64,000 bases of DNA, from positions 29,741 through 93,740 of the forward strand of contig NZ_CANLXZ010000013.1 of assembly GCF_947495285.1 (NCBI RefSeq). The letters are read 5' to 3'. The stretch comes from an uncultured Nonlabens sp. (GTDB lineage: Bacteria > Bacteroidota > Bacteroidia > Flavobacteriales > Flavobacteriaceae). Under the pieces are notes generated by a model. That model searched no databases. It had not been told where the DNA came from and saw nothing but the letters and a program-made list of their open reading frames with translations. Below, in pieces: positions 389 through 58,247 of the stretch. The translations under genes and the position numbers were made by a program. The first letter of the stretch is position 1; every line of letters starts with the position of its first letter.

Positions 389-1432
389 ATGAAAGCACAT
401 TTCCAGAAATACGTTTTAGAATTTAAGCAACCAGCAGGAACATCTCGTGGTATTTTAAAAACCAAAAACACTTGGTTTCTTATCATTGATAATGGTAATA
501 AACAAGGTGTAGGAGAGGTGAATATGTTTGCTGGTCTTTCTATAGACGACAGACCAGAATTTAAAAAGCAACTGCAATGGACTTGTGATCATATTAATTT
601 ATCACCGGTAGAGATGATGGAGGCATTAAAAAAATGGCCTTCTATTTTATTCGGTTATGAAACGGCGATGAGGTCCTTGCAATCTAGCGATCCTTTTACA
701 TTGTTTCCAACTATGTTTACAGAAGGGCAAGATGCGATTTCTATTAACGGACTCGTATGGATGGGAAATCAGGATTTTATGATGCAACAGCTAGAAGAAA
801 AACTAGCTGCAGGTTTTGACTGTATTAAAATGAAGATAGGCGCTATCGATTTTGAGTCAGAAATGAGTCTATTGAAATTGATTCGTTCTCGCTTTCGCGA
901 AAGCGAGATCACCATAAGAGTTGATGCAAATGGAGCTTTTACACCTCAAAATGCATTGGGTAAACTAGAAGAAATTGCAAAGTACGATGTACACAGTATA
1001 GAGCAACCTATTAAACAAGGTCAATGGGATGATATGGCACGGCTGTGTGAACAGACGCCGCTAGATATTGCTCTAGATGAAGAATTAATAGGTCTTTATA
1101 GTATAGAAGAAAAGATAGCCTGTCTAGATGTTATTAAACCGCAATATATTATCTTGAAACCTGCTCTGGTAGGTGGTTTTCAAAGTAGTAGAGAATGGAT
1201 AAATCTCGCTACCGAAAGAAATATAGACTGGTGGATCACAAGCGCACTTGAGTCTAATATAGGTCTTAATGCAATTGCACAATTCACGTACACGCTAGGT
1301 AATAAAATGCCACAAGGTCTAGGTACAGGGTCGCTTTATACTAATAATATAAAGGCACCACTAGAGATTAAAGAGGGACAGTTGTGGTGTAACACATCGG
1401 GCAATTGGGATACTAATAAAATAAAGTTTTAA
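389..1432 (+). CDS. menC: o-succinylbenzoate synthase (enolase superfamily)
   Basis: KMKIG, RVDANG, IEQP and LDEEL enolase-superfamily motifs; close to menE. Confidence 0.9.
   Translation: MKAHFQKYVLEFKQPAGTSRGILKTKNTWFLIIDNGNKQGVGEVNMFAGLSIDDRPEFKKQLQWTCDHINLSPVEMMEALKKWPSILFGYETAMRSLQSSDPFTLFPTMFTEGQDAISINGLVWMGNQDFMMQQLEEKLAAGFDCIKMKIGAIDFESEMSLLKLIRSRFRESEITIRVDANGAFTPQNALGKLEEIAKYDVHSIEQPIKQGQWDDMARLCEQTPLDIALDEELIGLYSIEEKIACLDVIKPQYIILKPALVGGFQSSREWINLATERNIDWWITSALESNIGLNAIAQFTYTLGNKMPQGLGTGSLYTNNIKAPLEIKEGQLWCNTSGNWDTNKIKF
890..905. repeat. 16-bp palindrome CGCTTTCGCGAAAGCG, exact, inside menC (encodes RFRES)
   Basis: Read directly; the stem extends to TCTCGCTTTCGCGAAAGCGAGA (887-908). 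Confidence 0.97.
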
Positions 1433-1435
1433 AAT

Positions 1436-2410
1436 ATGTTTATTAAAAGAGGTGCAAACGGTTTTCATGATACGTGGAAGTGGCTGATAGGTGCCGTGGT
1501 AATATTTTTGGGTTGTCAGTTTTTTGGTGCTATGCCATTCACTATTGCTGTAATTTATGAACAATTTACGCTTCATGGGGTAGATGCATTAAATAATCTA
1601 GATGAGTCTACATTAATGAATACCTTTTCAAAAAATGTTACTTTCTTTTTATTGATGTTCAGTTTTGTGGTAGGTACGCTAGTGTGGTGGTTGTGGATTA
1701 AATATATTCATAAGTTAACCTGGACAGCATCTACTACTTCACGAGATAAATTTGATTGGAATAGAGCTTTTTTTGCTTTTAGTATAGTAGGGCTTGTGTC
1801 TATAGCAAGTACTTTAATAGGGTACTACAGCAATCCTGAGGTTTATATATGGAATTATAACGCGAGTAACTTTGCTATTCTTGCAGTCATTGCTATTGCT
1901 TTAGTTCCTATACAAACTACATGGGAAGAGCTTTTTTTTAGAAGTTATGCTATGCAGGGATTGGGAATTATATCTGGTAATCGGGCAGTTCCTTATATTC
2001 TTACATCAGTCGTTTTTGGAATGATGCATATTTTTAATCCAGAAATTGCTACTATGGGGTATATCGTTATGATTTGGTACGTAGGTACTGGTTTTCTACT
2101 AGGTACTTTCACCTTAATGGACGAAGGTACTGAGCTAGCAATAGGTTTTCATGCAGCAAATAATTTATTTATAGCTTTATTAGTTACTGCAGACTGGACA
2201 GCGTTTCAAACAGATTCTTTATTGATAGATACATCAGACCCAACAGCTACCTGGGAAACCTTTATACCTTTATTTATTTATTATCCTGCCTTAATATTAC
2301 TGTTTGCTAAGAAATATAAATGGAACAATTGGAAAAATAAATTGTTCGGAAAAATAGATGTACCAGCTTTAAAAACTAATTATGATACCAAAGATCCATC
2401 CCACATTTAA
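1436..2410 (+). CDS. CPBP (CAAX protease-like) intramembrane glutamic endopeptidase
   Basis: Multi-TM protein with EELFFRSY, FGMMH and GFHAANN motifs. Confidence 0.88.
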   Translation: MFIKRGANGFHDTWKWLIGAVVIFLGCQFFGAMPFTIAVIYEQFTLHGVDALNNLDESTLMNTFSKNVTFFLLMFSFVVGTLVWWLWIKYIHKLTWTASTTSRDKFDWNRAFFAFSIVGLVSIASTLIGYYSNPEVYIWNYNASNFAILAVIAIALVPIQTTWEELFFRSYAMQGLGIISGNRAVPYILTSVVFGMMHIFNPEIATMGYIVMIWYVGTGFLLGTFTLMDEGTELAIGFHAANNLFIALLVTADWTAFQTDSLLIDTSDPTATWETFIPLFIYYPALILLFAKKYKWNNWKNKLFGKIDVPALKTNYDTKDPSHI

Positions 2411-3437: not shown

Positions 3438-3460
3438 AGACTTCTATGAGTCTTAAAAGT

Positions 3461-3497
3461 AAAAAGCCTTTAATACTAGTTGTATTAAAGGCTTTAT
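3461..3497. terminator. Bidirectional intrinsic terminator between convergent menE and the LMW-PTP gene
   Basis: 14-bp perfect stem AAAGCCTTTAATAC-tagtt-GTATTAAAGGCTTT. Confidence 0.85.
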
Positions 3498-3962
3498 TTA
3501 TTCTCTTGTAGGATCTAATTTTTTGGCAATAACATCTGTAGCTCTATCTAACATACGGTATACATTTTCAAAACCTTGTGTACCGCCGTAATATGGATCT
3601 GGTACATCTAGATTTTCTTCAGGAAAAGCTTCATCTAGTATTTTAATAACCTTTTTCTTTTCTTCTTCTGTAGAAGCAAGTGAGATTACATCATCATAAT
3701 TAGACTGATCCATGACATAGATGTAATTAAATTTCTGAAAGTCCTCTTTTAAGAGTTTACGACTTTTTTGCTTTGATATATCTAGTCCATTTTTCTTTGC
3801 AACAGCAATGGATCTTTTATCAGGCGCCTGTCCTTTATGACCACCGCTAGTACCAGCACTATCTATTTTAAATTTTGTAAAATTTAATTTAGATCTCATC
3901 AAGCCTTCAGCGAGAGGAGATCTACAAATGTTACCTAAACATATCATTAATATGTTAGTCAT
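3498..3962 (-). CDS. Low-molecular-weight protein-tyrosine phosphatase
   Basis: CLGNICRS P-loop and DPYYG motif. Confidence 0.95.
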   Translation of the reverse strand: MTNILMICLGNICRSPLAEGLMRSKLNFTKFKIDSAGTSGGHKGQAPDKRSIAVAKKNGLDISKQKSRKLLKEDFQKFNYIYVMDQSNYDDVISLASTEEEKKKVIKILDEAFPEENLDVPDPYYGGTQGFENVYRMLDRATDVIAKKLDPTRE

Positions 3963-7401: not shown

Positions 7402-8268
7402 TTACGCTTTCGCGAAAGCGATCATAAGAATAGCAACTATAGCTACTGTAATACCTATGTAATTCTTTGGAATTAGTTTTTCTTTGAATATAAGAATGCC
7501 CAGAATAGAAGCAAAAAGGACCGTAGCTACATTATTAATAGGGTAAACCACGCTGCTTTCCATGCCGTTTTTTAAAGATTTAATTAAAAAGTAAATGGAG
7601 AAATAGTTAGGAATTCCTAGCAGGATACCTGCGATTATAGATTTTAAATTGATAAGGCGTTTTTGTGTCGTCTCGTAAATAAGAATGATAACCCCTATGA
7701 TAAAGGCAGTGGCAAAACACATGGCGCTGAATAGAGATTCTTCTCCTACTGAGACGTGATTAATTTCGGCATATTTAAGTGTGGTGTCTATTATACCGCT
7801 ACCCAAAAATAATAGGACAGGAAGAATAAGTGTTTTTTTATCCAGCTGAAGCCCTTCCTTACTTTTAACTGATGTAAGATAAACAGAAATAAGAGCGAGT
7901 ATTATACCTGCGATTTTCATCCATCCTATAGATTCTTCATAAAGCCATATTCCTGCAATAACAGGAATAACTAGCGACATTTTTCCAGAGACAGCAGCGA
8001 CAGTAAGTCCATTTTTCTGGCTGGCAAGTGCCATGATGTTAAAAATAAAAATAAAAAGCGCGCCTGTAAAAAAGGAGTAGTAGAGCCAGTCTGCTTGTAA
8101 AATACTCTCCACATGAGGTACCTGTCCATAGGATATGAACCCAGTGACGCTAGCAATAATGTAATTAGTAATGATAGCATGTAAGGTGTTTACCTTAAAA
8201 ATTTCAAAGTATTTGAAAATCACATAGAGTAAACTAGATGTGATAACACTTAATAATAACCAGATCAT
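7402..8268 (-). CDS. EamA/DMT family transporter
   Basis: About 10 TM segments in two repeats; 288 aa. Confidence 0.85.
   Translation of the reverse strand: MIWLLLSVITSSLLYVIFKYFEIFKVNTLHAIITNYIIASVTGFISYGQVPHVESILQADWLYYSFFTGALFIFIFNIMALASQKNGLTVAAVSGKMSLVIPVIAGIWLYEESIGWMKIAGIILALISVYLTSVKSKEGLQLDKKTLILPVLLFLGSGIIDTTLKYAEINHVSVGEESLFSAMCFATAFIIGVIILIYETTQKRLINLKSIIAGILLGIPNYFSIYFLIKSLKNGMESSVVYPINNVATVLFASILGILIFKEKLIPKNYIGITVAIVAILMIAFAKA
7405..7420. repeat. 16-bp palindrome, exact, forming the last five codons (AFAKA) of the EamA gene
   Basis: Read directly; abuts the stop codon. Confidence 0.97.
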
Positions 8269-9272
8269 GCGTTAAGATATGTTTTTAAAACATCTTTATT
8301 TAAAGTAACTCTATCCAGGATGGTGTAGTTGCCATTTAATTTGGGCGCTGGTAGTCCATTATAAAATAAAACTTCAGTTCCTATAAACTGCATCGCTTCA
8401 TCCCATAAATTAGACTCGATAAATTGTTCTATGGTACGGGCGCCGCCTTCTATAATTACTGACTGTATGTGGTTGTTGTAGAGTTTTTTAATTATGGTTT
8501 CAGGATTGTTGGAGTCTATAGTGATCGTAGGAGCTGCAGTGTTAAAAACAGCGTTGTTTTTACCTAGATTATTTCTAGAATCTAGGATTATACGTGTAGG
8601 ATTCATGCCTTGCCAGTCCCTGCAAGTTAGTGATGGGTTATCATCTATTACGGTTTTTGCGCCTATAAGAATTGCGTTTTCTCCGGCTCTTAATCGGTGA
8701 GATAATTGTCTAGAATAAGAATTAGTAATCCATACTGGTTTTTGTTCTTCTTTTTGTACGGGCGCTATGAAACCGTCGGCAGTTTGGGCCCATTTTAAAA
8801 TAATATAAGGGCGTTTTTTTCTATGAAAAGTAAAAAAACGTTTGTTGAGAAAATCGCATTCTTTTTCTAGAACGCCCACTGTGACTTCTATACCTTCTTC
8901 TTTTAATATGGCAACACCTTTTCCTGCTACTTTTTCATGTGGATCTAGAGAGCCTATGACTACTTTTTTAAACCCCTTTTTTATGATCATAGAAGCGCAT
9001 GGTGGAGTTTTCCCTGTGTGAGAACAGGGCTCTAGGTTGACGTATAATACCGCTTTTGCAAAAGCGTCTCTACCATAACCATTTTTCTCAGCATCTAGGA
9101 CTGCGTTAACTTCAGCATGCGGTTCACCAGATTTTTTATGCCATCCTTCTCCAAGAATCTCGTCATTTTCAGAAACGATCACACTTCCCACTAGCGGATT
9201 AGGATACGTGGTTCCTAATCCATTTTGTGCTAGTTGTATGCAACGTTTTATGTATTTCTCATTTGTAGTCAT
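8265..9272 (-). CDS. ribD: Riboflavin biosynthesis deaminase/reductase
   Basis: HAEVNA, LEPCSHTGKTPPC zinc motifs and IIEGG. Start moved from the track GTG (9278) to ATG 9272 because 9278 lies within the -7 element TACTTTTG (9278-9285). Confidence 0.95.
   Translation of the reverse strand: MTTNEKYIKRCIQLAQNGLGTTYPNPLVGSVIVSENDEILGEGWHKKSGEPHAEVNAVLDAEKNGYGRDAFAKAVLYVNLEPCSHTGKTPPCASMIIKKGFKKVVIGSLDPHEKVAGKGVAILKEEGIEVTVGVLEKECDFLNKRFFTFHRKKRPYIILKWAQTADGFIAPVQKEEQKPVWITNSYSRQLSHRLRAGENAILIGAKTVIDDNPSLTCRDWQGMNPTRIILDSRNNLGKNNAVFNTAAPTITIDSNNPETIIKKLYNNHIQSVIIEGGARTIEQFIESNLWDEAMQFIGTEVLFYNGLPAPKLNGNYTILDRVTLNKDVLKTYLNA
9051..9066. repeat. Palindrome variant CGCTTTTGCAAAAGCG inside ribD (still AFAKA, still palindromic)
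   Basis: Two symmetric substitutions relative to the consensus; both are synonymous in the ribD frame. Confidence 0.75.
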
Positions 9273-13051: not shown

Positions 13052-13067
13052 CGCTTTCGCGAAAGCG
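13052..13067. repeat. 16-bp palindrome, exact, intergenic between ligA and the spondin gene
   Basis: Read directly; the stem extends to AATTCCGC...GCGGGATT. Confidence 0.97.
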
Positions 13068-18481: not shown

Positions 18482-18497
18482 CGCTTTCGCGAAAGCG
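18482..18497. repeat. 16-bp palindrome, exact, intergenic downstream of the LytTR gene
   Basis: Read directly (TTCCGCTTTCGCGAAAGCGCAA). Confidence 0.97.
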
Positions 18498-21691: not shown

Positions 21692-22489
21692 TTATTTTAG
21701 GATATCAAACCTATTATCTCTCTTAAAATTTAACGTGTCTACCTTTTTAAAATAATCAATTAGAGCATTTCTTATTTTATAATCTATTTTAGTCATAGGG
21801 GTATCCTTAAAGAAACTCATGTTGTCGCCACCGTTATATAAATAATCGTTAGTAGCTACGGTATATGTTTTATAGTTGTCTATAGGTTTTTTATTAATGA
21901 GAACCTTGTTGATGGAGTGGTCTTTATTTAATAAAATCTGTAAGCCATCTATAGGGTGTGCACTTTTACGTTCTACCAGGTAATTAATCAATTCATGAAC
22001 CTGTTTACCACTTAATTCTGCAATAACAATCTCGTTATCAAATGGCATTATTTCATATGCGCTACGCATAGTTACTGGGCCCGCGTTAAGACCAGATCGT
22101 ATACCACCGTGATTAAGTAATACCATGTCTAATCTCTTGCCGGTTCTAGAATAATACACAGGTTCTCCTTGTGTTCTAACTATAGCTGCCATCATATTTC
22201 CTATAGGAGTGTTAAGCTTATAGTCGTTCTTGTGCATTGAAGTAGGGTTGTAGCTTATCTGCTCGTTCATTTGTCCGTCTAGAGACTTTTTGAAAGGGGC
22301 AATAAAAGCCTCGATTTCTTCAGTACTTTCTAGAGTTGCGTCTACGGCTGTTTGATTTCCTGAGACTTTTTTAAGCTCATATATTTTCTGGCTGCAAGAA
22401 ACTAGTAAGATGGTGGATAGTAATACCGCTTTCGCGAAAGCGGAATGATTAAATACCACCTTACTGTTTACTAACTTATTTTTTTTCAT
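21692..22489 (-). CDS. 5'-nucleotidase C-terminal (substrate-binding) half, lipoprotein
   Basis: Lipobox LVSC; NHGGIRS, MPFDN and ATNDYL..GGD motifs. Confidence 0.87.
   Translation of the reverse strand: MKKNKLVNSKVVFNHSAFAKAVLLSTILLVSCSQKIYELKKVSGNQTAVDATLESTEEIEAFIAPFKKSLDGQMNEQISYNPTSMHKNDYKLNTPIGNMMAAIVRTQGEPVYYSRTGKRLDMVLLNHGGIRSGLNAGPVTMRSAYEIMPFDNEIVIAELSGKQVHELINYLVERKSAHPIDGLQILLNKDHSINKVLINKKPIDNYKTYTVATNDYLYNGGDNMSFFKDTPMTKIDYKIRNALIDYFKKVDTLNFKRDNRFDILK
22427..22442. repeat. 16-bp palindrome, exact, in the signal-peptide coding region (AFAKA)
   Basis: Read directly. Confidence 0.97.
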
Positions 22490-29918: not shown

Positions 29919-29934
29919 CGCTTTCGCGAAAGCG
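29919..29934. repeat. 16-bp palindrome, exact, intergenic just after the fabI terminator
   Basis: Read directly; arms extend TTTTAT...GATAAAA with a one-base bulge. Confidence 0.97.
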
Positions 29935-34057: not shown

Positions 34058-34076
34058 ATTGACTATTTTTGACAGC

Positions 34077-38264: not shown

Positions 38265-38981
38265 ATGGAAACTGAGAATAAAAAAATACTTCTTGTAGAA
38301 GATGACCCAAATTTTGGAACTGTATTAAAAGATTATCTTTTAATGAATGACTTTGATGTTACACATGCTAAAAACGGTATGGAAGGGTTTGAAAAATTTA
38401 AGAAAGATAACTATGATCTATGTATTCTTGATGTAATGATGCCATATAAAGATGGTTTTACACTTGCAAAAGAGATTAGAGAAAAAAATGAAGAAGTACC
38501 TATCATTTTCTTAACCGCAAAGGCGATGAAAGAAGATGTATTAAGAGGTTATAAAGTAGGAGCAGATGACTATCTTAACAAGCCTTTTGATAGTGAAGTG
38601 CTACTTATGAAGATAAGAGCAATCATGCAGCGTAAAGGACAAGATAGTCTAGCAGATTCAAAAGAATTTGAATTTCAAATAGGTAGTTTCCATTTGAATT
38701 CTAAATTAAGATTCTTATCAGTTGGTGAAAATGAACCTGTAAAACTCTCCCCTAAGGAGAATGAATTATTACGTTTACTTGCACTGCACCTTAACGATCT
38801 AATGCCTAGAGAACTAGCATTAACAAAAATATGGAGAGATGATAATTACTTTACGTCTAGATCTATGGATGTTTATATAGCAAAGTTGCGTAAATATCTT
38901 AAAGAAGATGATAATGTAGAGATCGTTAACATACATGGAGAAGGTTTCCGTTTGTTAGTTAAAGATCAAGTAGATTATTAA
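38265..38981 (+). CDS. rprY: OmpR-family response regulator (RprY-like)
   Basis: LDVMMP and KPFD receiver motifs; RSMDVYIAKLRK winged helix. Confidence 0.92.
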   Translation: METENKKILLVEDDPNFGTVLKDYLLMNDFDVTHAKNGMEGFEKFKKDNYDLCILDVMMPYKDGFTLAKEIREKNEEVPIIFLTAKAMKEDVLRGYKVGADDYLNKPFDSEVLLMKIRAIMQRKGQDSLADSKEFEFQIGSFHLNSKLRFLSVGENEPVKLSPKENELLRLLALHLNDLMPRELALTKIWRDDNYFTSRSMDVYIAKLRKYLKEDDNVEIVNIHGEGFRLLVKDQVDY

Positions 38982-39901
38982 TTAAGATTGTTTCTCATAA
39001 GTAAAACATTAACTCGCTCTACAATTTCTGTATGGCGAGTTTTGTAATGATACCATTTTACAGAGATATCCTTGCGATACCAGGTTAATTGACGTTTTGC
39101 AAATCTACGAGTATTGCGTTTTATTAATCGCACCGCTTCTTCATAACCATGCTCTTTATTAAAGAACCCAAAAAATTCTTTATAACCTACAGTTTGTAAA
39201 GCATTAAGTTCTTGGTGGGCTATAAGTTGGCGAGCTTCTTCTTCAAGTCCTCTCTCTAACATGATGTCCACACGACGATTTATGCGATCATAAAGATCTT
39301 CACGACTGGCCTCGAGTCCTATTTTTATGACTTTAAAATCTCGTTGTTGAGCAGTTCCAGATCTTAAGTCACTCATTTTTTTGCCGCTAGCGCGATATAT
39401 TCCTACGGCTCTAAGTAATCTATGAGCATTGTGAATATCTACCGTGCTGTAATACTCTGGATCTATGTGTTCTAATTCTTTTTGTAACCAGGTAATTCCT
39501 TTAATCTCAAATTCTTCTCTCAAGAAATCTTGAATCTCTATGGAAACATCAGGAAATATATCTAGTCCATGAGTAACTGCCTTTTCATAAAGTGCACTAC
39601 CACCTACCATAACAACGACATCATTTTTCTCAAAAAGAGTTGGTAATAGATCCATTACATCTCTTTCAAAATCTCCTACAGAATAATCATCCAGAATACT
39701 TCTATCCTGAATAAAATAGTGAGTTGCAGCTGCCAGTTCTTCTGGTTCTGGGACAGCAGTTCCTATGGTCATTTCTTTATAAAACTGTCTGGAGTCTGAC
39801 GATATGATGGATGTGTTGTACGCTTTCGCGAAAGCGATACTCAAAGCAGTCTTTCCTATTCCAGTAGGGCCTACGATACATAGTAGAGTCTTGTTATTCA
39901 T
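38978..39901 (-). CDS. miaA: tRNA dimethylallyltransferase
   Basis: GPTGIGKT, DSRQFY, GGSALY and TRRFAKRQLTW motifs. Confidence 0.97.
   Translation of the reverse strand: MNNKTLLCIVGPTGIGKTALSIAFAKAYNTSIISSDSRQFYKEMTIGTAVPEPEELAAATHYFIQDRSILDDYSVGDFERDVMDLLPTLFEKNDVVVMVGGSALYEKAVTHGLDIFPDVSIEIQDFLREEFEIKGITWLQKELEHIDPEYYSTVDIHNAHRLLRAVGIYRASGKKMSDLRSGTAQQRDFKVIKIGLEASREDLYDRINRRVDIMLERGLEEEARQLIAHQELNALQTVGYKEFFGFFNKEHGYEEAVRLIKRNTRRFAKRQLTWYRKDISVKWYHYKTRHTEIVERVNVLLMRNNLN
39821..39836. repeat. 16-bp palindrome, exact, inside miaA (AFAKA, in the helix after the P-loop)
   Basis: Read directly. Confidence 0.97.
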
Positions 39902-43230: not shown

Positions 43231-46056
43231 CTAATACCACCTTCTGGTAAAAAGTTTTACAAAAGTGTTAATGTCTAGAGTAACTATAAAACGTATTTTT
43301 TCGTCATATTTATCTTGTCCCATTTCCCAGCCATTATTACTGTAAACAGGGAAATACAGCTCAAAATAATCTTGCAAAAAATTTAAACGTATTCCAGAAT
43401 CATAGACAAATTTTGCATCGCGATCTCTGTTTTTTACAAACCCCACGTCTCCATAAACATGAATATAATTCCATAAACTGTACGATCCATTTACCGTGGT
43501 AATCCACTGATTTGCAAATGCTGGTTCTAATTGTGATTTAAAACCACCTTCGGCCACGATTAATTGTTGAGAGAATATACCGCTATCCTCAGATCTACCG
43601 TAGTAGTTGTAATCAAATAAATAGTCTGTAGGTCTATCTAGTGCAAAGGAGAAAAAATCGCCGTTAGATGCGCTATTGTTGGATAGAAAAGCACCAGCAA
43701 AAACTCTAAAATCTAGTTGTCTATTATTTTTAAATAACTTTCGCCATCGCAATCTGTATGTTGCTTTAGTAAATTTACTAGAGATTTCTGTTCCTATATT
43801 ATAATTAAATACGCGTTTTAAATTATTATCAGAATGTGAGAAATTTATGCTGAATACGTTGTAATCTGGCTCGTCTACTGGGCTTAATGGGTCTCGATCA
43901 CGGTCTACATAAATATTTCTAAAACTTAAGGACTGGATCTTATTACTACGTAAATCTTCAGGACGGTAACTAAATTGTAAAAAGCCGCTCGCACGTCGGT
44001 ACAATAGATCATCAGCATAAGAAAAGGTATTTGCACTCACTCCATACCTCACACGATACAGTCTTTCTTCTCGATTTTGAACAGGATGTGCATAGCTCAG
44101 ACTAATAGATCCCACCAGCTTGTTAGAGTTAGTCCCATATCCAGGTTTAATGCTATATCGCAATGGTTTAGGTAATAGATTTCCATTGTAAAATCTTGTT
44201 CCTAGAGTAAGACCGTCATAGATGTTAAATTCTATATCGGGCATTAAAAATATTTGAGAACGTTCTGGATCTTCCACATCTTTAAATAAACGGAATTCTA
44301 ACGGACGGTTCAATGAAGGGAATCCCTTTAGGGTCTTGTAATTATCACGTGGATTAAACTCGGTTATGAGTTTTTCATAGTTTATGGCTATTCTGTTAGC
44401 ACGCTTTCGCGAAAGCGAGATCACACTATCACCTCTCACACCTTCTATCCATCTCTTATCTATAATGCTGTTGTTATCTAGTAAATAGACAGGAATAGGA
44501 ATGTTAAGTTGCGACTTATTCTTGATTCTGAATGAAACGGAGTCTTTGGTTTTATGAACGTTTCTTATCGTCCAGTCCAGCTGTTTATGGGTAGTGATGT
44601 AGTCGTCAAAAAACCAGTTGACATCTTTGGGAGCGTCTTGTTGCACTATTTTTCTAAAATCAGAAACGTCTGTGTAAGCGTTATGATTTGCGGTGTAATA
44701 ATCTCTTATAGATTGTTCTAGGCTGCTGTCTTCTAGATAATCGTTTAAGAAATTTAGTCCTATGGCGGCTTTAAAAGGTATTCCTAATTGCTGATTGTAC
44801 TTTACCAGCTGGTCTGCAGGCGTGTTGACAGCCTCGTCCAGATTGCGTCTTGCGCTGTTAAGGTAGAGTAGTGGATAACTCTCGCTAAATTTGAGTTGCG
44901 TGACATTAAAACCTCTCAATCCCCATACATTACTAAGTTTACCACTTATTTTAAGATCTGGATAGTAAAGTTGCTGGTATTGCATCATTAAATACACCAT
45001 GATAGATTGTTGTATCCAGGCTTCTTTTCTAGGATTAACGTGTACACCGTTTTCTACCCATTTGCGTGTTAGTGCTTTGAGCATTTTAATTTCATAAGTA
45101 AAACCGGCAGGAAAAGGATTTATAAAACTAGGTAAAGAACTTAACCCATAAACTGGATTCTCTCGATAATAACGGTCGGATACAAAGACATCTTTTTCTC
45201 GATAATCACCCAGTCTAGTCTGAAGAAAGCTAGCAATTCTATCGTTAAAAATTACTTTCATTTCTAGAGGTACATCGCTGTCATCTATATCTGTGATAAT
45301 GTTAATGCCTGGTACACTGTAGGTTTTAAAAATATCGATGTCGTTGAGCACATGAAGAATAACACCACGATTATGGCTTGCTGTAAATAAATAACTATGA
45401 CGCGTGTCTGGTAACGCCTCTTGTGCAGTGGTAATATTACTTATCGCTCGATGTGTTGCTGGTATGTGTAGAGAGATCGAAAAATCCATGGGTGCGCCAT
45501 AGAAATCATCTAGATCTTTATGAGAATAATAATCCCATGCTCCATCTTTAAACGGTGCAGGGTGCAGATACCAGTGTTTTAGAGTGTATTCTCCTTTAGA
45601 ATTTTTTCCATAGCCGGTAAAATCGTCTTCTGGTATTTTAACCGTATAATTTAAATCTATGTTGCGAGTAGCGCCTGGTGGCAATGGCTCTTTAAAATAA
45701 AGTTTTATAATATCTTGTTGACCATCTAGTCGCTCGATGCGATAATGTTGATCAAAGTTAGAGTCTGTGGTGATAGTTGTTCTACCTCGCTCTTGATCAT
45801 TTGCAAACTGAAATTTGTTTTTAAAATCTTCGGCAAAGCGTGTTGCAAGCGGTGTTTGTGTAGAAGAAAATGCATTTGCCCAATCTAGAAGTATGATGTA
45901 ATCCCAGGCTGCATCGCTATCGTTATAAATTTCTAGATCTTGATTTATAGACAGCAAGTCTTTATCGCTATCTAGATGTGCGATAATGTCTGTTTTGTAC
46001 TGTGCGTGTAGGACACAAGTAAACAAAAGCAAAAGAAGAACTAGCTTTTTAGTCAT
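43231..46056 (-). CDS. M1/gluzincin-like protein lacking HExxH, with a probable C-terminal beta-barrel region
   Basis: Signal peptide and an M1-like N-terminal layout. The Zn-motif position reads KALTRKW...EAWIQQS; the last ~380 aa show amphipathic beta-strand alternation. Confidence 0.6.
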   Translation of the reverse strand: MTKKLVLLLLLFTCVLHAQYKTDIIAHLDSDKDLLSINQDLEIYNDSDAAWDYIILLDWANAFSSTQTPLATRFAEDFKNKFQFANDQERGRTTITTDSNFDQHYRIERLDGQQDIIKLYFKEPLPPGATRNIDLNYTVKIPEDDFTGYGKNSKGEYTLKHWYLHPAPFKDGAWDYYSHKDLDDFYGAPMDFSISLHIPATHRAISNITTAQEALPDTRHSYLFTASHNRGVILHVLNDIDIFKTYSVPGINIITDIDDSDVPLEMKVIFNDRIASFLQTRLGDYREKDVFVSDRYYRENPVYGLSSLPSFINPFPAGFTYEIKMLKALTRKWVENGVHVNPRKEAWIQQSIMVYLMMQYQQLYYPDLKISGKLSNVWGLRGFNVTQLKFSESYPLLYLNSARRNLDEAVNTPADQLVKYNQQLGIPFKAAIGLNFLNDYLEDSSLEQSIRDYYTANHNAYTDVSDFRKIVQQDAPKDVNWFFDDYITTHKQLDWTIRNVHKTKDSVSFRIKNKSQLNIPIPVYLLDNNSIIDKRWIEGVRGDSVISLSRKRANRIAINYEKLITEFNPRDNYKTLKGFPSLNRPLEFRLFKDVEDPERSQIFLMPDIEFNIYDGLTLGTRFYNGNLLPKPLRYSIKPGYGTNSNKLVGSISLSYAHPVQNREERLYRVRYGVSANTFSYADDLLYRRASGFLQFSYRPEDLRSNKIQSLSFRNIYVDRDRDPLSPVDEPDYNVFSINFSHSDNNLKRVFNYNIGTEISSKFTKATYRLRWRKLFKNNRQLDFRVFAGAFLSNNSASNGDFFSFALDRPTDYLFDYNYYGRSEDSGIFSQQLIVAEGGFKSQLEPAFANQWITTVNGSYSLWNYIHVYGDVGFVKNRDRDAKFVYDSGIRLNFLQDYFELYFPVYSNNGWEMGQDKYDEKIRFIVTLDINTFVKLFTRRWY
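44402..44417. repeat. 16-bp palindrome, exact, inside the M1-like gene (LSRKR)
   Basis: Read directly. Confidence 0.97.
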
Positions 46057-47061: not shown

Positions 47062-47661
47062 ATGTCAGTTTTAGAAAAATATCTTCCTAAACTTGCCACG
47101 GCACCATTAACTGCGTTATTGCAGCAAAATCAGGTGCATCTTAAAATTGTAAATGAGCGCAAGACCAGACATGGAGATTATCGTAAAAACCCAGACGGTT
47201 CTCATGCAATAACCATAAATTCAAATCTTAATAAATACCGGTTTTTAATAACCCTAGTGCATGAAATAGCACACCTAGTGGCGTTTCAAAAATATGGTAG
47301 ACAGATAAAACCCCATGGAGTAGAGTGGAAACATACGTTTCAAAAACTCATGCTTCCCTTTTTAAGGCCAGACATTTTTCCCAAAGATTTACTGCCTGTA
47401 CTAGCACGACATTTTAAAAACCCTAAAGCGAGTAGCGATACAGATGCAATGATGAGTGTCGCCCTAAAATCATACGACCCAGAAAGTGATAAAAGCTATA
47501 TCTTTGAAATACAAGAAGGGACTACCTTTTTAGGACCTAGCGGTAGAAAATTCCAAAAAGGAAGTAAATTGCGTAAACGCTACCGTTGTGTAGAAATAAG
47601 TACTGGAAAAGTGTATCTTTTCCAACCTAACGCGCAAGTAGAAGTATTAAAAACAATATGA
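47062..47661 (+). CDS. SprT-like metalloprotease-domain protein
   Basis: HEIAH and PHGVEWK motifs. Confidence 0.87.
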   Translation: MSVLEKYLPKLATAPLTALLQQNQVHLKIVNERKTRHGDYRKNPDGSHAITINSNLNKYRFLITLVHEIAHLVAFQKYGRQIKPHGVEWKHTFQKLMLPFLRPDIFPKDLLPVLARHFKNPKASSDTDAMMSVALKSYDPESDKSYIFEIQEGTTFLGPSGRKFQKGSKLRKRYRCVEISTGKVYLFQPNAQVEVLKTI

Positions 47662-48737
47662 ATAACAACAACTACGCAGTAATTATGGCTGGCGGTGTTG
47701 GTTCTCGATTCTGGCCAGTAAGTAAGCAATCTTTTCCTAAACAATTTCACGATATGTTAGGAATAGGTAAGTCACTCTTACAGATGACCTTTGATCGATT
47801 AAAGCATCAAATTCCAGCACAGCACATACTAGTATTAACTAACCATGCCTATGTAGACCTAGTAAAGGAGCAATTGCCCGACATGAACTTTGACAACATA
47901 GTTGCAGAGCCTGCTATGCGCAATACCGCTCCATGTATTTTACTGGCTGCTTTAAAGATTCAGAAAATGAACGCGCAGGCCAGTATGATAGTTGCACCTA
48001 GCGATCATTACATTGCCCAAGAGGACATCTTTAACGAAGACCTTAATACTGCATTTGATTTCTGTAAATTACATCCAGACGCGTTAATGACCTTAGGAAT
48101 ACAACCTACGTTTCCTAATACTGGTTATGGATATATTGAATTTAATAAGGAGGAAAGTGAGGTAAAAAAGGTATCTCAATTTAGAGAAAAACCAGATCTT
48201 AAAACGGCTCAAGAATTTATCGCTGCAGGTAATTTTTTATGGAATGCAGGGATTTTTATTTGGAATGTAGATAGTGTCGTTTCCGCTTTCGCGAAAGCGC
48301 AACCACAATTAACCTCTTTATTTAAAAATGGATTATCTGTTTTAAATACCAACAATGAAACACAATGGCTAGAAGAAAATTATCCAAAAGCCGATAATAT
48401 TTCTGTCGATTATGCGATCATGGAAAAAAGTGAAGACGTGTATGTATTACCTGCACGTTTTTCATGGAATGATCTAGGTACATGGGGCTCGCTTTATGAA
48501 AAACTAGATAAAAATGATAAGCAAAGTGCTGTAGTAAATGCGTCTGTGACAGAGATAGATTCTAGTAAAAATATGATAAGAACGGCAGCTGGTAAGAAGG
48601 TAATCGTTCAAGGGCTAGAAAATTACATAGTAGTAGATCAAGACGATGTATTAATGATTATCCCTATGACTGAAGAGCAGGAAATCAAACAAATACGTAA
48701 TAAAGCCATGGAAAAATATGGCAATAATATAGGTTAA
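47658..48737 (+). CDS. manC: Mannose-1-phosphate guanylyltransferase
   Basis: MAGGVGSRFWP..PKQF, EPAMRNTAP, FREKP and WNDLGTW motifs. Confidence 0.93.
   Translation: MNNNNYAVIMAGGVGSRFWPVSKQSFPKQFHDMLGIGKSLLQMTFDRLKHQIPAQHILVLTNHAYVDLVKEQLPDMNFDNIVAEPAMRNTAPCILLAALKIQKMNAQASMIVAPSDHYIAQEDIFNEDLNTAFDFCKLHPDALMTLGIQPTFPNTGYGYIEFNKEESEVKKVSQFREKPDLKTAQEFIAAGNFLWNAGIFIWNVDSVVSAFAKAQPQLTSLFKNGLSVLNTNNETQWLEENYPKADNISVDYAIMEKSEDVYVLPARFSWNDLGTWGSLYEKLDKNDKQSAVVNASVTEIDSSKNMIRTAAGKKVIVQGLENYIVVDQDDVLMIIPMTEEQEIKQIRNKAMEKYGNNIG
48284..48299. repeat. 16-bp palindrome, exact, inside manC (AFAKA)
   Basis: Read directly. Confidence 0.97.
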
Positions 48738-55072: not shown

Positions 55073-55168
55073 CGTGGTAAAAATAGATAAAAATAATTCC
55101 ACATAATTTAATGCTTTATTAAACTTGTTCATTTTTTCATAGTTTACTTTTGTGAAAAATATTTTTCT

Positions 55169-56848
55169 ATGAAGAATTTACTTTCTCTGATACTTCTTTT
55201 TGTCTTGTTGACTTCTTGTAGCACGCTTTCGCCAAAGCGAGACTACCATCCATCTACGTCCTCCATGACAGAATCGAGTGCGCCAGAAAAAGCTCCTAAA
55301 CTAGTAGTAGGTATAGTAGTAGATCAAATGAGGTATGATTATTTATCTAGATTTTATGACCGCTATACAGATGGTGGGTTTAAAAGACTTATGAATGAGG
55401 GTTTTAACCTGACTAATAATCATTATAATTATGTACCTACTTATACTGCGCCAGGACATGCGTCTATTTATACAGGTACATCACCTATGAATCATGGAAT
55501 TATAGGTAACAACTGGTACGATAAATTTGAGGGTAAGGTTATTTATAACGCAAGTGATGACCAGGTGAGTGGTGTAGGTTCTTTAAGTAACGACGGTAAA
55601 ATGTCACCACGTAGAATGTTAACCACTACAGTGACAGATCAACTAGAATTGCACACTCAAGGTAAAGCAAAGGTGATAGGAATTTCTGTAAAAGATAGAG
55701 GTGCTATTTTACCAGCAGGGCACGCCGCAGATGCTGCTTACTGGTTTGAAGGTGGTGATAAAGGAAGTTTTATTTCTAGCACATTTTATCTAGAACGATT
55801 ACCTAAATGGGCGGCAGATTTTAACGCCTCTAGAAAAGCAGACGATTATCTTAAAACCTGGAATACCCTTTACCCATTAGAAACCTATACAGCTAGTGGT
55901 ACAGATCTTAATAAATTTGAAAAAGCACCTAAAGGTAAGACTAACGCTGTTTTTCCTTATGATTTAAATTATTTGAGAGAAAAAAATGATAATTACAGCC
56001 TTATCAAAGCGACTCCATATGGTAATAGCATAGTCGCAGATTTTGCTATCGCAGCAATAAAAGCAGAAAATATGGGGCAGGATGAGGTGACTGATTTTCT
56101 TGCGGTGAGTTTTTCTAGCACCGATTATATAGGACATCAATACGGTGTAAACTCGGTAGAGATAGAAGATACCTATTTGAGACTGGATAAAGATTTAGAG
56201 CGTCTTTTCATGACTCTCGATAAAGAAGTAGGTAATGGGAATTATACTATTTTCTTAACCGCAGATCATGGTGCGATTAATAACCCAGTTTACCTCCAGA
56301 CTAGAAGAATAAACGCAGGTTACTTTAATAGATCTGACTTTAAGAATAATCTATATAAAGCTATACAGGATAAGTATGGTGTAAATGATTTAGTTTCTAA
56401 CATTTCTAACGACCAGATATTCTTTAATAAAGCAAACCTGATTAAAAATAATATCAATCCTATCGATCTAGAGAACTTTATAGCAATGACTATAGTAGAT
56501 TATAAACATATCGATAAGGTATTTACTAGAAATGCGTTAGTATCTGGTACTATGCAAGATGGCACAGGAAAGTTGATTCAAAATGGTTTTCATCACAAGC
56601 GTAGTGGTGATGTGATCTATGTTCTAGAACCAGCTGTTATTTCTTACTCTAAAACGGGCTCTACGCACGGTAGTTCTCAAAGTTATGATACTCATGTACC
56701 ATTATTGTTTTATGGTAATGGAATTAATAAAGGATCTAGCAGTAAGCGCACAGAGATCATAGATATAGCACCGACTGTATCGAGTCTTTTAAAAATAGGG
56801 TTTCCTAATGGATCTACTGGTAATCCTATAAGCGATGCTTTAAAATAA
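55169..56848 (+). CDS. pafA: PafA-type alkaline phosphatase, lipoprotein
   Basis: Lipobox LTSC; VDQMRYDYL, TYTAPGH, KDRGAILPAGH, TDYIGH and TADHG motifs. Confidence 0.92.
   Translation: MKNLLSLILLFVLLTSCSTLSPKRDYHPSTSSMTESSAPEKAPKLVVGIVVDQMRYDYLSRFYDRYTDGGFKRLMNEGFNLTNNHYNYVPTYTAPGHASIYTGTSPMNHGIIGNNWYDKFEGKVIYNASDDQVSGVGSLSNDGKMSPRRMLTTTVTDQLELHTQGKAKVIGISVKDRGAILPAGHAADAAYWFEGGDKGSFISSTFYLERLPKWAADFNASRKADDYLKTWNTLYPLETYTASGTDLNKFEKAPKGKTNAVFPYDLNYLREKNDNYSLIKATPYGNSIVADFAIAAIKAENMGQDEVTDFLAVSFSSTDYIGHQYGVNSVEIEDTYLRLDKDLERLFMTLDKEVGNGNYTIFLTADHGAINNPVYLQTRRINAGYFNRSDFKNNLYKAIQDKYGVNDLVSNISNDQIFFNKANLIKNNINPIDLENFIAMTIVDYKHIDKVFTRNALVSGTMQDGTGKLIQNGFHHKRSGDVIYVLEPAVISYSKTGSTHGSSQSYDTHVPLLFYGNGINKGSSSKRTEIIDIAPTVSSLLKIGFPNGSTGNPISDALK
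55224..55239. repeat. Palindrome variant CGCTTTCGCCAAAGCG (1 mismatch) in pafA (LSPKR)
   Basis: Read directly; lies just after the lipobox Cys. Confidence 0.85.
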
Positions 56849-56874
56849 TAAGTTCTTTTAAAATTGTATAATCT

Positions 56875-56882
56875 TATATTTG
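56875..56882 (+). promoter_or_regulatory. -7 element TATATTTG
   Basis: Exact TAnnTTTG upstream of 56908. Confidence 0.6.
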
Positions 56883-56907
56883 CGATCGCAAAATTAAAAC
56901 TTATCCC

Positions 56908-57399
56908 ATGAAAAAATTATTACTTATCGCGGCTCTTATAGCTGGTGTAACTCTTAATGCCCAAGTATTTGCAGGTAAAGGAGATCAAAAAGTACAAATA
57001 GGTGCAGATTTTCAAAGTAACGCATCTGGTATACAATGGACTTATGATTATGGTCTTGCAGAGAATTTTTCTATGGGTATAGGAGCTAACTATGCACTGG
57101 GTCTAGAAGATAGTATAGACGCAAGCTTTGATGAAAGAGCAACCATAAAATTACGTTTTAATGCAAACATAGGTAACGTGATCAACATAGATCCTATGTT
57201 TGATTTTTATCCAGGTCTTGCTTTTAGTACAAAAAACTTTGGTGGTCATGTAGGTGCTAGATATTTCTTTACAGACGGTTTTGGTCTCTATACAGAGGCT
57301 GCTTTTCCACTAGCAAAATATAAATCTGGAAACCTAACAGTCCAGGAAGAGCTTTATAATCAGTTCAACGTGAGTGTAGGACTTGCTTTTAATTTCTAA
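56908..57399 (+). CDS. Small outer-membrane beta-barrel protein (DUF6646-like)
   Basis: Signal peptide, about 8 amphipathic strands and C-terminal Phe. Confidence 0.7.
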   Translation: MKKLLLIAALIAGVTLNAQVFAGKGDQKVQIGADFQSNASGIQWTYDYGLAENFSMGIGANYALGLEDSIDASFDERATIKLRFNANIGNVINIDPMFDFYPGLAFSTKNFGGHVGARYFFTDGFGLYTEAAFPLAKYKSGNLTVQEELYNQFNVSVGLAFNF

Positions 57400-58247
57400 A
57401 ACCCTAGTTTAGACTTTATACCGTTCCAGCGGTAATTTCTTATAAAACGACCTTGCTCTTCTGTTACCAGTGGAGTAAGGTTCTTTTTTTGTGCCAGTCG
57501 GTACCCTTTTAAATAATCGGTAATAAGTGAGAATTGCTTTTTATTCCATGCCATTTTTATGGCTGTAATAAAAGTGAGTGTCCTGCCATAATTCATTTTG
57601 TAAAAAGCCTCTCCTTGTAGGTATTTAGATCTAGAATTATATGCCGCTCCAGTAGGTTTTAAATGTTTTACATGCAAACCGGTAATAGTAAAGACTTGCC
57701 ATCCATAAAACCGCGCCAGCATCTCATCGATCGTATCCCAACCTATACTGGCCTTGAGACCACCTATTTGTTGAAAACACTCTGTTCTGTACGCTTTTAA
57801 AGCACCTCTTATGTGATCAGGATTATTTAGACTTTCTACTTGCCATGTTCCACCTTTATCGATAGTACAATGTCCTGCTGTCATTCCTATTGTTTCGCTT
57901 TCGCGAAAGCGAGTCACCACATCTTTTAAATAGTTTTCAGGAAAAATTAAGTCCGAATCGTATTTACAGACTATGTCATAATCTTCTATATCTATTTGAG
58001 ATAACCCATAATTAAAGGCATGAATCACTTTAGAGCCTGGTATATTTTGCGCACTGGAAGAGGTTTTTACCACATGAATAGGTAGCACAGTAGCATAGGA
58101 GCAAGCTATGTCATAAGTAGCGTCTGTAGAGTTATCATCTACCACCACTATTTGTGCTGCCTTATAAGTTTGCTGTGCTAGACTGTCTAAGGTTAATTTA
58201 ATGAATTGTTCTTCATTATGTGCAGGTATGATAATGACTATTTTCAA
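57396..58247 (-). CDS. Glycosyltransferase family 2
   Basis: IIIPAHNEE, VDDNSTD, DSD and GWDTID motifs. Confidence 0.9.
   Translation of the reverse strand: MKIVIIIPAHNEEQFIKLTLDSLAQQTYKAAQIVVVDDNSTDATYDIACSYATVLPIHVVKTSSSAQNIPGSKVIHAFNYGLSQIDIEDYDIVCKYDSDLIFPENYLKDVVTRFRESETIGMTAGHCTIDKGGTWQVESLNNPDHIRGALKAYRTECFQQIGGLKASIGWDTIDEMLARFYGWQVFTITGLHVKHLKPTGAAYNSRSKYLQGEAFYKMNYGRTLTFITAIKMAWNKKQFSLITDYLKGYRLAQKKNLTPLVTEEQGRFIRNYRWNGIKSKLGF
57896..57911. repeat. 16-bp palindrome, exact, inside the GT2 gene (RFRES)
   Basis: Read directly. Confidence 0.97.

What the first reader, a model, noticed from the sequence alone, without database searches (positions are those of the whole stretch)
890..57911. 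Palindrome copies form a near-regular ~4-kb lattice with an apparent exclusion distance
SEEN (hand-computed): gaps between the 12 exact copies are 6515, 5647, 5430, 3945, 3753, 3739, 4317, 5585, 4581, 3882 and 9612 bp, so none is below 3.7 kb. Under random placement, the chance that all 11 gaps exceed 3739 bp is about (1-11*3739/57006)^10, or 3e-6; this test is post hoc. With all 16 copies the mean gap is ~4.2 kb and the CV ~0.35, against ~1 for random placement. The three gaps under 3 kb (7405-9051, 55224-57896, 57896-60122) each involve an imperfect copy. INFERENCE: selection or the generating mechanism favours about one site per 4-5 kb, and redundant close neighbours decay. This fits a nucleoid-organising, replication/repair or DNA-uptake role better than random mobile-element insertion.
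Basis: partly seen in the sequence, partly recalled or inferred. Interest (0 to 1): 0.9.

Follow-up and report, generated by a model that had tools for sequence, protein, structure and literature searches.

The report
Evenly spaced genome-wide palindrome tag
A 16-letter DNA palindrome occurs about every 4-6 kb through this marine flavobacterium's chromosome; copies almost never lie within 2 kb of each other and crowded copies decay, so each copy seems to serve a stretch of DNA a few kilobases long, as DNA-uptake tags do in other bacteria.

Summary

- **Genome-wide spacing.** The 3.2-Mb Nonlabens genome has 498 exact copies. The gap CV is 0.61, or 0.49 with 1-2-mismatch copies, against 0.97-0.99 for random nulls. 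Five gaps are under 1 kb, where 68 are expected.
- **Not a lattice.** Successive gaps are uncorrelated and the pair-correlation function shows no oscillation. There is a soft exclusion zone of about 2-2.5 kb, plus a deficit of long gaps.
- **The ruler is base pairs, not genes.**
- **Crowded copies decay.** 47% are imperfect when a neighbour lies under 1.5 kb away, and 10% when it lies over 5 kb away (rho = -0.25, p = 2e-10).
- **Origin and maintenance.** Copies arise by substitution, not insertion. They sit at orthologous positions across the genus and evolve about 5 times slower than their flanks.
- **Where they are missing.** The ribosomal-protein cluster and foreign islands lack them.
- **Taxonomic range.** Only 3 of 266 sampled Flavobacteriaceae genera have hundreds of copies. 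The exclusion recurs in the other two, and in the one I compared, at mostly different positions.

My best reading is a DUS/USS/HIP1-class self-DNA tag whose upkeep depends on local redundancy. Uptake and recombination drive is the likeliest process (about 40%). The protein that reads it is unknown. I found no published description.

The parts
890..905 (.). Exact 16-bp palindrome, inside ORF 389..1432 (+)
7405..7420 (.). Exact copy at the 3' end of ORF 7402..8268 (-)
9051..9066 (.). Imperfect copy CGCTTTTGCAAAAGCG with two mirror-image changes, 1646 bp from the copy at 7405. This variant occurs 10 times in the genome.
13052..13067 (.). Exact copy in an intergenic spacer
18482..18497 (.). Exact copy in an intergenic spacer
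22427..22442 (.). Exact copy in ORF 21692..22489 (-)
26180..26195 (.). Exact copy in ORF 25170..26378 (+)
29919..29934 (.). Exact copy in an intergenic spacer
34236..34251 (.). Exact copy in ORF 34059..35078 (+). The 14-mer core is kept at the orthologous position in 12 of the 15 related loci aligned there.
39821..39836 (.). Exact copy in ORF 38978..39901 (-). The 14-mer core is kept at the orthologous position in 13 of the 14 Nonlabens loci aligned there.
44402..44417 (.). Exact copy in the 941-aa protein gene (43231..46056, -), read as LSRKR. The position is orthologous across Nonlabens down to 56-58% amino-acid identity. Other genera have a same-length, unrelated peptide there.
48284..48299 (.). 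Exact copy in ORF 47658..48737 (+). The 14-mer core is kept at the orthologous position in 10 of the 11 loci aligned there.
55224..55239 (.). Copy with 1 mismatch (CGCTTTCGCCAAAGCG), 2672 bp from the copy at 57896. The core is intact in relatives L001, L002, L003 and L029, so this is a recent decay.
57896..57911 (.). Exact copy in ORF 57396..58247 (-)
60122..60137 (.). Copy with 1 mismatch at the outermost base; the 14-mer core is intact
63598..63613 (.). Copy with 3 mismatches, CGCTTTCGCAGAAGTG

Best explanation
SHOWN. GCTTTCGCGAAAGC, usually extended to CGCTTTCGCGAAAGCG, is a lineage-specific, genome-wide iterated sequence tag of the same class as DUS/USS and HIP1. It has roughly 30-bp flanks that are T-rich and C-poor on the 5' arm of each strand. 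It is written into genes and spacers by point substitution. The sequence is maintained at the DNA level. The strength of that maintenance depends on local redundancy: a copy with another copy within about 2-2.5 kb is poorly maintained and decays, while isolated copies stay perfect. Stretches longer than about 12 kb without a copy are rare outside foreign islands and the ribosomal-protein cluster. The result is a renewal process with gamma shape 3-4, a mean gap of 4.4 kb over all copies, and a ruler measured in base pairs.

INFERRED. The tag is read as duplex DNA by an unidentified sequence-specific, probably dimeric, protein. That protein acts in a process whose working unit is a DNA segment of a few kilobases, so one tag per segment is enough.

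MOST LIKELY PROCESS (about 40%). Cells preferentially take up and/or recombine conspecific DNA fragments that carry the tag. A fragment or conversion tract with one tag gains nothing from a second. Drive or selection therefore fills gaps and relaxes on crowded copies, which sets the exclusion distance near the typical tract length.
For: **Spacing.**

**Crowding and decay.** See, the comparative test, and the polarity check.

**Base-pair ruler.** The CV is 0.49 in bp against 0.60 in gene counts, and genes of 3 kb or more carry two copies.

**Substitution origin.**

**Constraint on the tag.** Divergence inside the 16-mer is 1.7%, against 8.3-9.3% in the flanks.

**Sequence reading rather than structure.**
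- The four central bases are as conserved as the arms.
- No compensatory double changes occur at stem positions 1-5.
- The hairpin is weak, at -4.3 kcal/mol.
- Arm complementarity does not exceed what column composition predicts.

**Taxon specificity.** All 19 genomes of the genus hold 175-738 copies. Only 3 of 266 sampled genera have hundreds.

**Recurrence of the exclusion.** It appears in three other Nonlabens genomes and in two other genera. In G284 only 3 of 28 mapped sites share a position with Nonlabens. The spacing is therefore regenerated by the process, not inherited as an accident.

**DUS-like ecology.**
- Copies are absent from an R-M/integrase island, a low-GC polysaccharide cluster and the ribosomal-protein cluster.
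- Small clusters of copies in otherwise copy-free genera lie in a shared metal-resistance island, which reads as an HGT footprint.
- Intergenic density is 3-4 times higher, yet 54% of copies are genic.

**Literature.**
- USS show significant even spacing (Karlin, cited in PMC1939737).
- DUS spacing matches conversion-tract length, and DUS are under-represented in recently acquired DNA (PMC2397512).
- Riemerella columbina, in the same order, is naturally competent and prefers its own DNA (PMC7965970).
- HIP1 raises transformation efficiency in a cyanobacterium (bioRxiv 10.1101/2024.09.10.611283).

ComEC is present in every Nonlabens genome searched.
Against: - No reader protein was identified.
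- Competence has not been shown for Nonlabens, as far as I know.
- The type IV pilus/T2SS ATPase family is absent from this genome and from 16 of 19 Nonlabens genomes, so the canonical uptake machine is missing.
- Known uptake sequences are asymmetric, 9-12 bp long and about 4 times denser.
- Between-species divergence is flat with distance from a copy, so there is no visible recombination hot or cold spot.
- A few contigs that look like temperate phages carry copies at host-like density. Uptake drive does not predict this for phage DNA.
- The crowding effect in the two-genome comparison is weak (p = 0.04, 35 events).
Confidence: 0.4

Rival explanations
1. Chromosome-architecture sites. The palindromes are loading or anchoring sites for a nucleoid protein that spreads, bridges or extrudes loops over about 2 kb on each side (Noc/ParB-like, SMC-loader-like). 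Selection then favours one site per domain of about 4 kb.
For: - The ruler is in base pairs, with both exclusion and gap filling.
- A 14-16-bp perfect palindrome is the typical form of a dimer binding site such as parS or the Noc binding site (my own knowledge).
- HIP1 periodicity has been read as architectural (PMC5861425).
Against: - Each genome has only one ParB-family gene, as in palindrome-free families.
- A 20-kb ribosomal-protein region and whole islands do without sites.
- The system exists in only 3 of 266 genera, which is odd for a core architectural function.
- There is no long-range periodicity.
Confidence: 0.2
2. Intracellular recombination/repair or self-recognition tag. The site works like Chi, or as a programmed nick or break site. 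A nuclease or repair complex that travels a few kilobases needs to meet one tag to switch to repair or to spare self DNA.
For: - The density of 1 per 4-6 kb is close to that of Chi in E. coli (my own knowledge).
- The 5' arm of each strand is G+T-rich and C-poor for about 30 nt. This is the composition RecA prefers on the 3' tails that a break at the centre would leave (inference).
- Copies are absent from foreign islands.
- Some temperate-phage-like contigs carry copies, as expected if tags protect DNA inside the cell.
Against: - Known Chi sites are short, asymmetric and orientation-biased, and a palindrome cannot encode direction.
- Divergence shows no signal around the sites.
- No nuclease was identified.
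Confidence: 0.15
3. Exclusion comes from harmful interactions between nearby identical palindromes, such as slipped deletion, inversion or snap-back. Close pairs are purged whatever the tag does.
For: Short-gap depletion and decay of crowded copies are what purging of close pairs would give. Each copy is both a direct and an inverted repeat of every other copy.
Against: - The exclusion reaches 2-2.5 kb, far beyond the range at which 16-bp repeats interact appreciably (my own knowledge).
- It does not explain the deficit of long gaps: 2 gaps over 14 kb, against about 26 on an exponential estimate.
- It does not explain why the tag exists at all.
Confidence: 0.08
4. A methyltransferase and mismatch-repair ratchet, as proposed for HIP1. 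A cognate methylase together with very-short-patch-type repair converts near-matches into the palindrome.
For: - The commonest core change is C>T at the outer CpG of the central CGCG (22 of 55 non-terminal single changes).
- The mirror-image double variant occurs 10 times.
- HIP1 is tied to orphan methylases (PMC4390886).
Against: - Seven palindrome-rich genomes, including both other genera, have no C5-methyltransferase family gene.
- A ratchet acting on near-matches cannot create a 16-mer from unrelated sequence.
- It predicts no distance dependence.
- N4 and N6 methylases were not tested.
Confidence: 0.04
5. Miniature mobile element (REP/RAYT-like or MITE) with target immunity that prevents insertions near an existing copy.
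For: There are hundreds of short palindromic copies, and target immunity would give exclusion.
Against: - Copies replace codons with no length change.
- 54% of copies are genic.
- All turnover between species is by point mutation.
- The Y1 transposase family is absent from palindrome-rich G003, G008 and G284 and common in palindrome-free genomes.
- No stem covariation is seen.
Confidence: 0.01

Closest known systems
DNA uptake sequences: Neisseriaceae DUS and Pasteurellaceae USS
   Same: - Taxon-specific oligomer with hundreds to thousands of copies.
- Sits in genes and spacers by substitution, with enrichment in spacers.
- Conserved at orthologous positions.
- More evenly spaced than random (PMC1939737), with spacing tied to conversion-tract length (PMC2397512).
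- Scarce in recently acquired DNA.
- Traceable in other genera after HGT.
- Has an AT-rich flank signature.
   Different: - A perfect 14-16-bp palindrome rather than an asymmetric 9-12-mer.
- About 4 times sparser.
- Phylum Bacteroidota.
- No type IV pilus ATPase in most genomes.
- Uptake bias is untested.
- Nearest-neighbour exclusion is much sharper (CV 0.5).
HIP1 (GCGATCGC) of cyanobacteria
   Same: - Hyper-abundant palindrome inside genes in all frames.
- Conserved by selection at the DNA level, with single-mismatch variants also partly conserved.
- Non-random spatial distribution (PMC5861425).
- Recently linked to transformation (bioRxiv 10.1101/2024.09.10.611283).
   Different: - Twice as long and 5-10 times sparser.
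- Confined to three genera rather than a phylum.
- No conserved C5-methylase partner.
- The spatial signal is a 2-kb nearest-neighbour exclusion, not a periodicity of tens of kilobases.
parS and Noc-binding sites (ParB family)
   Same: Both are palindromes of about 16 bp read by a dimer. The protein spreads over kilobases from each site, which would naturally give each site a domain (my own knowledge).
   Different: parS and Noc sites number a handful to about 70 per genome, not 500-800. No extra ParB paralogue is present here.
Chi sites
   Same: Both are genome-wide self tags at about one per 4-5 kb, read by a machine that travels along the DNA (my own knowledge).
   Different: Chi is a short, asymmetric, strand- and orientation-biased site read on single-stranded DNA.

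Membership tests
DUS/USS uptake sequences | Strong over-representation of one oligomer, restricted to a taxon | tested here: met
   498 exact copies against about 0 expected. 3 of 266 genera have hundreds.
DUS/USS uptake sequences | Copies lie in coding and non-coding DNA, arise by substitution and avoid recently acquired DNA | tested here: met
DUS/USS uptake sequences | Competent cells preferentially take up DNA that carries the motif | not testable with these tools
   This needs uptake or competition assays. The only related evidence is R. columbina, which prefers its own DNA (PMC7965970).
DUS/USS uptake sequences | Type IV pilus-based uptake machinery with a motif receptor | tested here: not met
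   The T2SSE/PilB family (PF00437) is above cut-off in only 3 of 19 Nonlabens genomes and not in G000. ComEC is present in all.
HIP1-type iterated palindrome | Hyper-abundant palindrome conserved at orthologous sites beyond codon needs | tested here: met
HIP1-type iterated palindrome | Cognate orphan DNA methyltransferases that recognise the motif | tested here: inconclusive
   The C5-MTase family is absent from 7 palindrome-rich genomes. N4 and N6 families and the modification itself were not tested.
HIP1-type iterated palindrome | Periodicity over tens of kilobases | tested here: not met
   g(r) shows no oscillation up to 20 kb and gaps are serially uncorrelated. The draft assembly limits longer scales.
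REP/RAYT (REPIN) elements | Extragenic hairpin repeats with a linked single-copy Y1 transposase | tested here: not met
   54% of copies are genic. PF01797 does not track the palindrome. No stem covariation is seen.
MITE / inserted mobile element | Presence or absence comes with an insertion and a target-site duplication | tested here: not met
   Alignments with and without the site have the same length. Turnover is by point change only.
ParB/Noc binding sites | A ParB-family reader dedicated to the sites | tested here: not met
   Each genome has one ParB_N gene, the same as in palindrome-free families.
Intrinsic terminators | Stable hairpin followed by a U-tract, enriched between convergent genes | tested here: not met
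   Convergent spacers hold 29 copies against about 46 expected. The flanks are T-rich upstream and A-rich downstream, the reverse of a terminator. The hairpin is only -4.3 kcal/mol.

The most novel reading that the evidence does not exclude
The tag belongs to an undescribed system in Bacteroidota that physically measures DNA. Examples are a sliding or loop-extruding clamp, a resection and recombination complex, or site-initiated packaging or export of DNA pieces of about 4 kb.
Probability: 0.15. Interest if true: 0.9.

Novelty: new variant of a known kind. Interest (0 to 1): 0.72.

Why it matters
What genome-wide iterated motifs such as DUS, USS and HIP1 are for, and whether selection or selfish drive maintains them, is a long-standing open question. 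This case gives an unusually clean quantitative handle on it.

- The motif is long and unambiguous.
- It has a sharp exclusion distance of about 2 kb.
- Decay depends measurably on crowding.
- Three genera carry the same motif, and in the one compared with Nonlabens the positions are mostly different.

These properties make concrete predictions. The exclusion distance should equal the fragment or tract length, or the reach, of the reading machinery. If uptake is confirmed, this would be the first uptake-sequence system outside Proteobacteria, and a palindromic one. The tag is also a practical tracer of gene transfer out of these genera, for example the metal-resistance island.

Tried and rejected
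- **Chance or post hoc artefact:** rejected by the genome-wide nulls and by replication in five other genomes.
- **Heterogeneous site propensity (intergenic against coding):** this null still gives a CV of 0.99.
- **One site per gene or operon:** regularity is weaker in gene units, and long genes hold two copies.
- **True lattice:** no serial correlation or oscillation.
- **Terminator role:** rejected.
- **Extended hairpin:** the arms are not complementary beyond what column composition predicts.
- **Mobile element or RAYT:** rejected.
- **Noc-like ParB paralogue:** none found.
- **C5-methylase partner:** no correlation.
- **Recombination footprint in between-species divergence:** flat.
- **A Nonlabens lineage that lost the system, for gene-content subtraction:** locus L005 looked decayed, but its genome still holds 312 cores.
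- **Literature searches** for the motif and for Nonlabens or Dokdonia with 'palindrome': nothing relevant.
Full report
**What is there.** The palindrome is CGCTTTCGCGAAAGCG. The imperfect copies are at 9051, 55224, 60122 and 63598.

**Organism.** The window is C13:29741-93740 of a 3.2-Mb draft genome with 34.6% GC. A 941-aa protein encoded in the window is 95% identical to Nonlabens xylanidelens DSM 16809 and has orthologues in many Nonlabens records.

**Genome-wide spacing.**
- There are 498 exact copies, and 439 gaps within contigs.
- The gap CV is 0.61, against 0.97 +/- 0.04 for uniform placement.
- Five gaps are under 1 kb where 68 are expected, and 17 are under 2 kb where about 126 are expected.
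- The mode is 3-5 kb and the gamma shape 3.3.
- A null that keeps the 4.2-fold higher intergenic density still gives a CV of 0.99.
- Adding copies with 1 or 2 mismatches makes the pattern more regular, not less: CV 0.49 and mean gap 4.4 kb.
- Those imperfect copies themselves avoid exact copies. Between 0.8% and 3.3% lie within 1 kb of an exact copy, against 31% of random points.

**This window is unusually tidy.** Among 140 runs of 12 consecutive exact copies the median CV is 0.45. Only 5.7% of runs have a minimum gap of 3739 bp or more.

**Lattice or exclusion?**
- Successive gaps are uncorrelated (Pearson 0.03, Spearman -0.01).
- The variance of sums of n gaps matches a renewal process.
- The pair-correlation function is 0.04-0.16 below 1.5 kb, reaches about 1 at 2.5-3 kb and does not oscillate.
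- The hazard rises from 0.016 per kb at 0-1 kb to 0.45-0.5 per kb at 5-7 kb.
- Only 2 gaps exceed 14 kb, where an exponential distribution with the observed mean gap would give about 26.

The pattern is a soft exclusion zone of about 2-2.5 kb plus gap filling, not a lattice with long-range order. Regularity is stronger in base pairs (CV 0.49) than in gene counts (CV 0.60), and genes of 3 kb or more carry two copies. The ruler is therefore physical distance.

**Do redundant neighbours decay?** Within the genome, mismatch number falls as nearest-neighbour distance rises (Spearman -0.25, p = 2e-10).

| Nearest neighbour | Imperfect copies | Copies with 2 or more mismatches |
|---|---|---|
| under 1.5 kb | 47% | 33% |
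| over 5 kb | 10% | 0% |

For a less circular test I fetched 800 kb of N. xylanidelens. Of this, 81% aligns to the window's genome at 90.3% identity.
- 182 orthologous copies were found.
- 118 are exact in both genomes, 23 only in N. xylanidelens and 12 only in this genome.
- Every difference is a set of 1-4 point changes in a pre-existing copy.
- Copies degraded in one genome have closer neighbours (one-sided p = 0.04).
- The fraction degraded is 28% when the nearest neighbour is under 3 kb away, 13% at 4-6 kb, and 0 of 4 beyond 6 kb.

The comparative effect is weak but runs in the predicted direction. The window's 1-mismatch copy at 55224 has an intact core in four relatives, so it is a decay and not a nascent site.

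**Nature of the copies.**
- 54% lie inside called genes, and intergenic density is about 3-4 times higher.
- All three reading frames are used, with xxC GCT TTC GCG AAA GCG (AFAKA) favoured, at 170 of 302.
- In the 941-aa protein, Nonlabens reads LSRKRA where other genera have an unrelated peptide of the same length, so the site is written by substitution.
- The same positions are kept in species with only 56-58% amino-acid identity and 68-80% local nucleotide identity.
- Conditioning on exactness in one genome, the 16-mer diverges by 1.7% while flanks at every distance diverge by 8.3-9.3%.
- The conserved unit is the 14-mer (581 copies). The outermost base is the most variable position, accounting for 79 of 134 single-mismatch copies.
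- The four central bases are as constrained as the arms.
- No compensatory double changes occur at stem positions 1-5.
- The single-strand hairpin is worth only -4.3 kcal/mol.
- Each strand has a T-rich, C-poor 5' arm of about 30 nt, seen also in intergenic copies. The arms of individual copies are no more complementary than column composition predicts.

This points to sequence-specific reading of duplex DNA, probably by a dimer, rather than to an RNA or DNA structure. Intergenic copies are not enriched between convergent genes (29 against about 46 expected), and the flank polarity is the reverse of a terminator.

**Where copies are missing.** There are three main copy-free stretches:
- the ribosomal-protein/EF-G/SecY/RpoA cluster (C5, 19.9 kb);
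- an R-M/integrase island (C24);
- a low-GC polysaccharide cluster (C14).

Strong protein constraint and foreign origin therefore both exclude the tag.

**Taxonomic range.**
- All 19 genomes of the genus hold 175-738 exact copies, and 12 other families hold none.
- Across 266 Flavobacteriaceae genera, only this genus and two others (G284 with 409 cores, G304 with 797) have hundreds. All the rest have 22 or fewer.
- Where other genera have a few copies, these are clustered.
- The three genera whose clusters I fetched (G131, G145, G168) carry a czc/cus/copper-resistance island homologous to C21:8-32 kb of this genome. This reads as a footprint of gene transfer from a tag-bearing genus.

**Recurrence of the exclusion.** Short-gap exclusion recurs in three other Nonlabens genomes and in both other genera: 0 against 12.5 expected, and 1 against 9.9 expected, gaps under 1 kb. 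Positions are mostly not shared between genera. Only 3 of 28 mappable G284 sites fall within 12 nt of a Nonlabens copy, against 1 of 180 control points. In the 941-aa protein orthologue, G284 carries the core 2 nt out of register (AFAKA instead of LSRKR) with no indel. The spacing rule is therefore regenerated by the underlying process in each lineage.

- ComEC is present in all Nonlabens genomes.
- The pilus/T2SS ATPase family is missing from this genome and from 16 of 19 Nonlabens genomes.
- Each genome has a single ParB, as in palindrome-free families.
- C5-methyltransferases and Y1 transposases do not track the palindrome.

**Viral contigs.** In IMG/VR the 16-mer occurs in only 42 stretches. 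A few contigs have 4-6 copies and encode baseplate, tape-measure or integrase proteins.

**Interpretation.** Four things are shown:
- The motif is a lineage-specific tag written by substitution.
- It is maintained at the DNA level.
- Its maintenance relaxes when another copy lies within about 2 kb.
- Long gaps are filled except where protein constraint or recent acquisition forbids it.

I infer that each copy serves a DNA segment of a few kilobases. The known systems with this full set of properties are uptake sequences.
- USS are significantly evenly spaced (Karlin, cited in PMC1939737).
- DUS spacing matches conversion-tract length, and DUS avoid recently acquired DNA (PMC2397512).
- A competent member of the same order prefers its own DNA (PMC7965970).
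- HIP1 has recently been tied to transformation (bioRxiv 10.1101/2024.09.10.611283) and shows a non-random spatial distribution (PMC5861425).

I therefore favour an uptake and recombination tag, at about 40%. The rivals are an architectural loading site (about 20%), an intracellular repair or self tag (about 15%) and pair toxicity as a contributor (about 8%). Against uptake stand the missing pilus ATPase, the palindromic form, the flat divergence profile and the phage-borne copies.

**Prior description.** I found no published description. Earlier notes from this scan, made on other genomes, describe the same motif. I re-tested their main claims independently.

Noticed in passing
G000 C21:8000-32000 (loci L039, L040); L033-L038 from G131, G145, G168: A metal-resistance island of about 25 kb carries czcCBA/cus-type RND efflux genes, a multicopper oxidase and P-type ATPases. 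It is shared at 68-79% nucleotide identity with three other genera (G131, G145, G168) that otherwise lack the palindrome. There it still carries 3-6 copies, including a recurring pair 933 bp apart in the outer-membrane factor gene. This looks like a tracer of gene transfer out of a tag-bearing genus.
   Followed up: partly
L126 (G284:C1:2251265-2254066) versus window 44402-44417: In the orthologue of the 941-aa protein, another genus has the 14-mer core 2 nt out of register with the Nonlabens copy. It reads AFAKA instead of LSRKR, with no indel, and both flanks align best at a +2 shift. This is either an independent rewriting at nearly the same spot or a site that moved.
   Followed up: partly
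genome-wide; window 9051-9066: The mirror-image double variant CGCTTTTGCAAAAGCG occurs 10 times, against 22 single C>T variants at the same position. That is far more than independent hits would give. No C5-methylase is conserved that could explain a methyl-CpG hotspot.
   Followed up: partly
flanks of all copies, about 30 nt on each side: The flanks show a palindromic composition signature. The 5' arm on each strand is T-rich and C-poor (C 6-10%), with T peaks at -3, -6, -9 and -12. The signature is also present in intergenic copies, yet individual flank bases diverge at nearly the background rate.
   Followed up: partly
IMG/VR loci L050, L082 (contigs 3300036669_000050 and 3300040781_000495): Contigs that look like temperate phages (integrase, tape measure, baseplate hub) carry 4-6 copies in 24-37 kb, which is host-like density.
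   Followed up: partly
G001:C1:131677-225871 and G003:C4:297970-332468: Two other Nonlabens genomes have copy-free stretches of 94 kb and 34 kb. These are probably large islands. They were not fetched.
   Followed up: no
G003, G007, G009: Only 3 of 19 Nonlabens genomes have a full-length T2SSE/PilB-type ATPase, so a pilus or T2SS-like system is accessory in the genus.
   Followed up: no
G000 C5:48492-68406: The ribosomal-protein/EF-G/SecY/RpoA cluster is the longest copy-free stretch in the genome (19.9 kb). Protein and expression constraint therefore outweighs whatever maintains the tag.
   Followed up: partly
G284 (400 kb fetched, L128-L147): In the genus with 45.5% GC the 14-mer is the conserved unit. 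There are 12 exact 16-mers and 33 copies with one mismatch, consistent with variation at the outermost base (per-copy positions not checked).
   Followed up: partly
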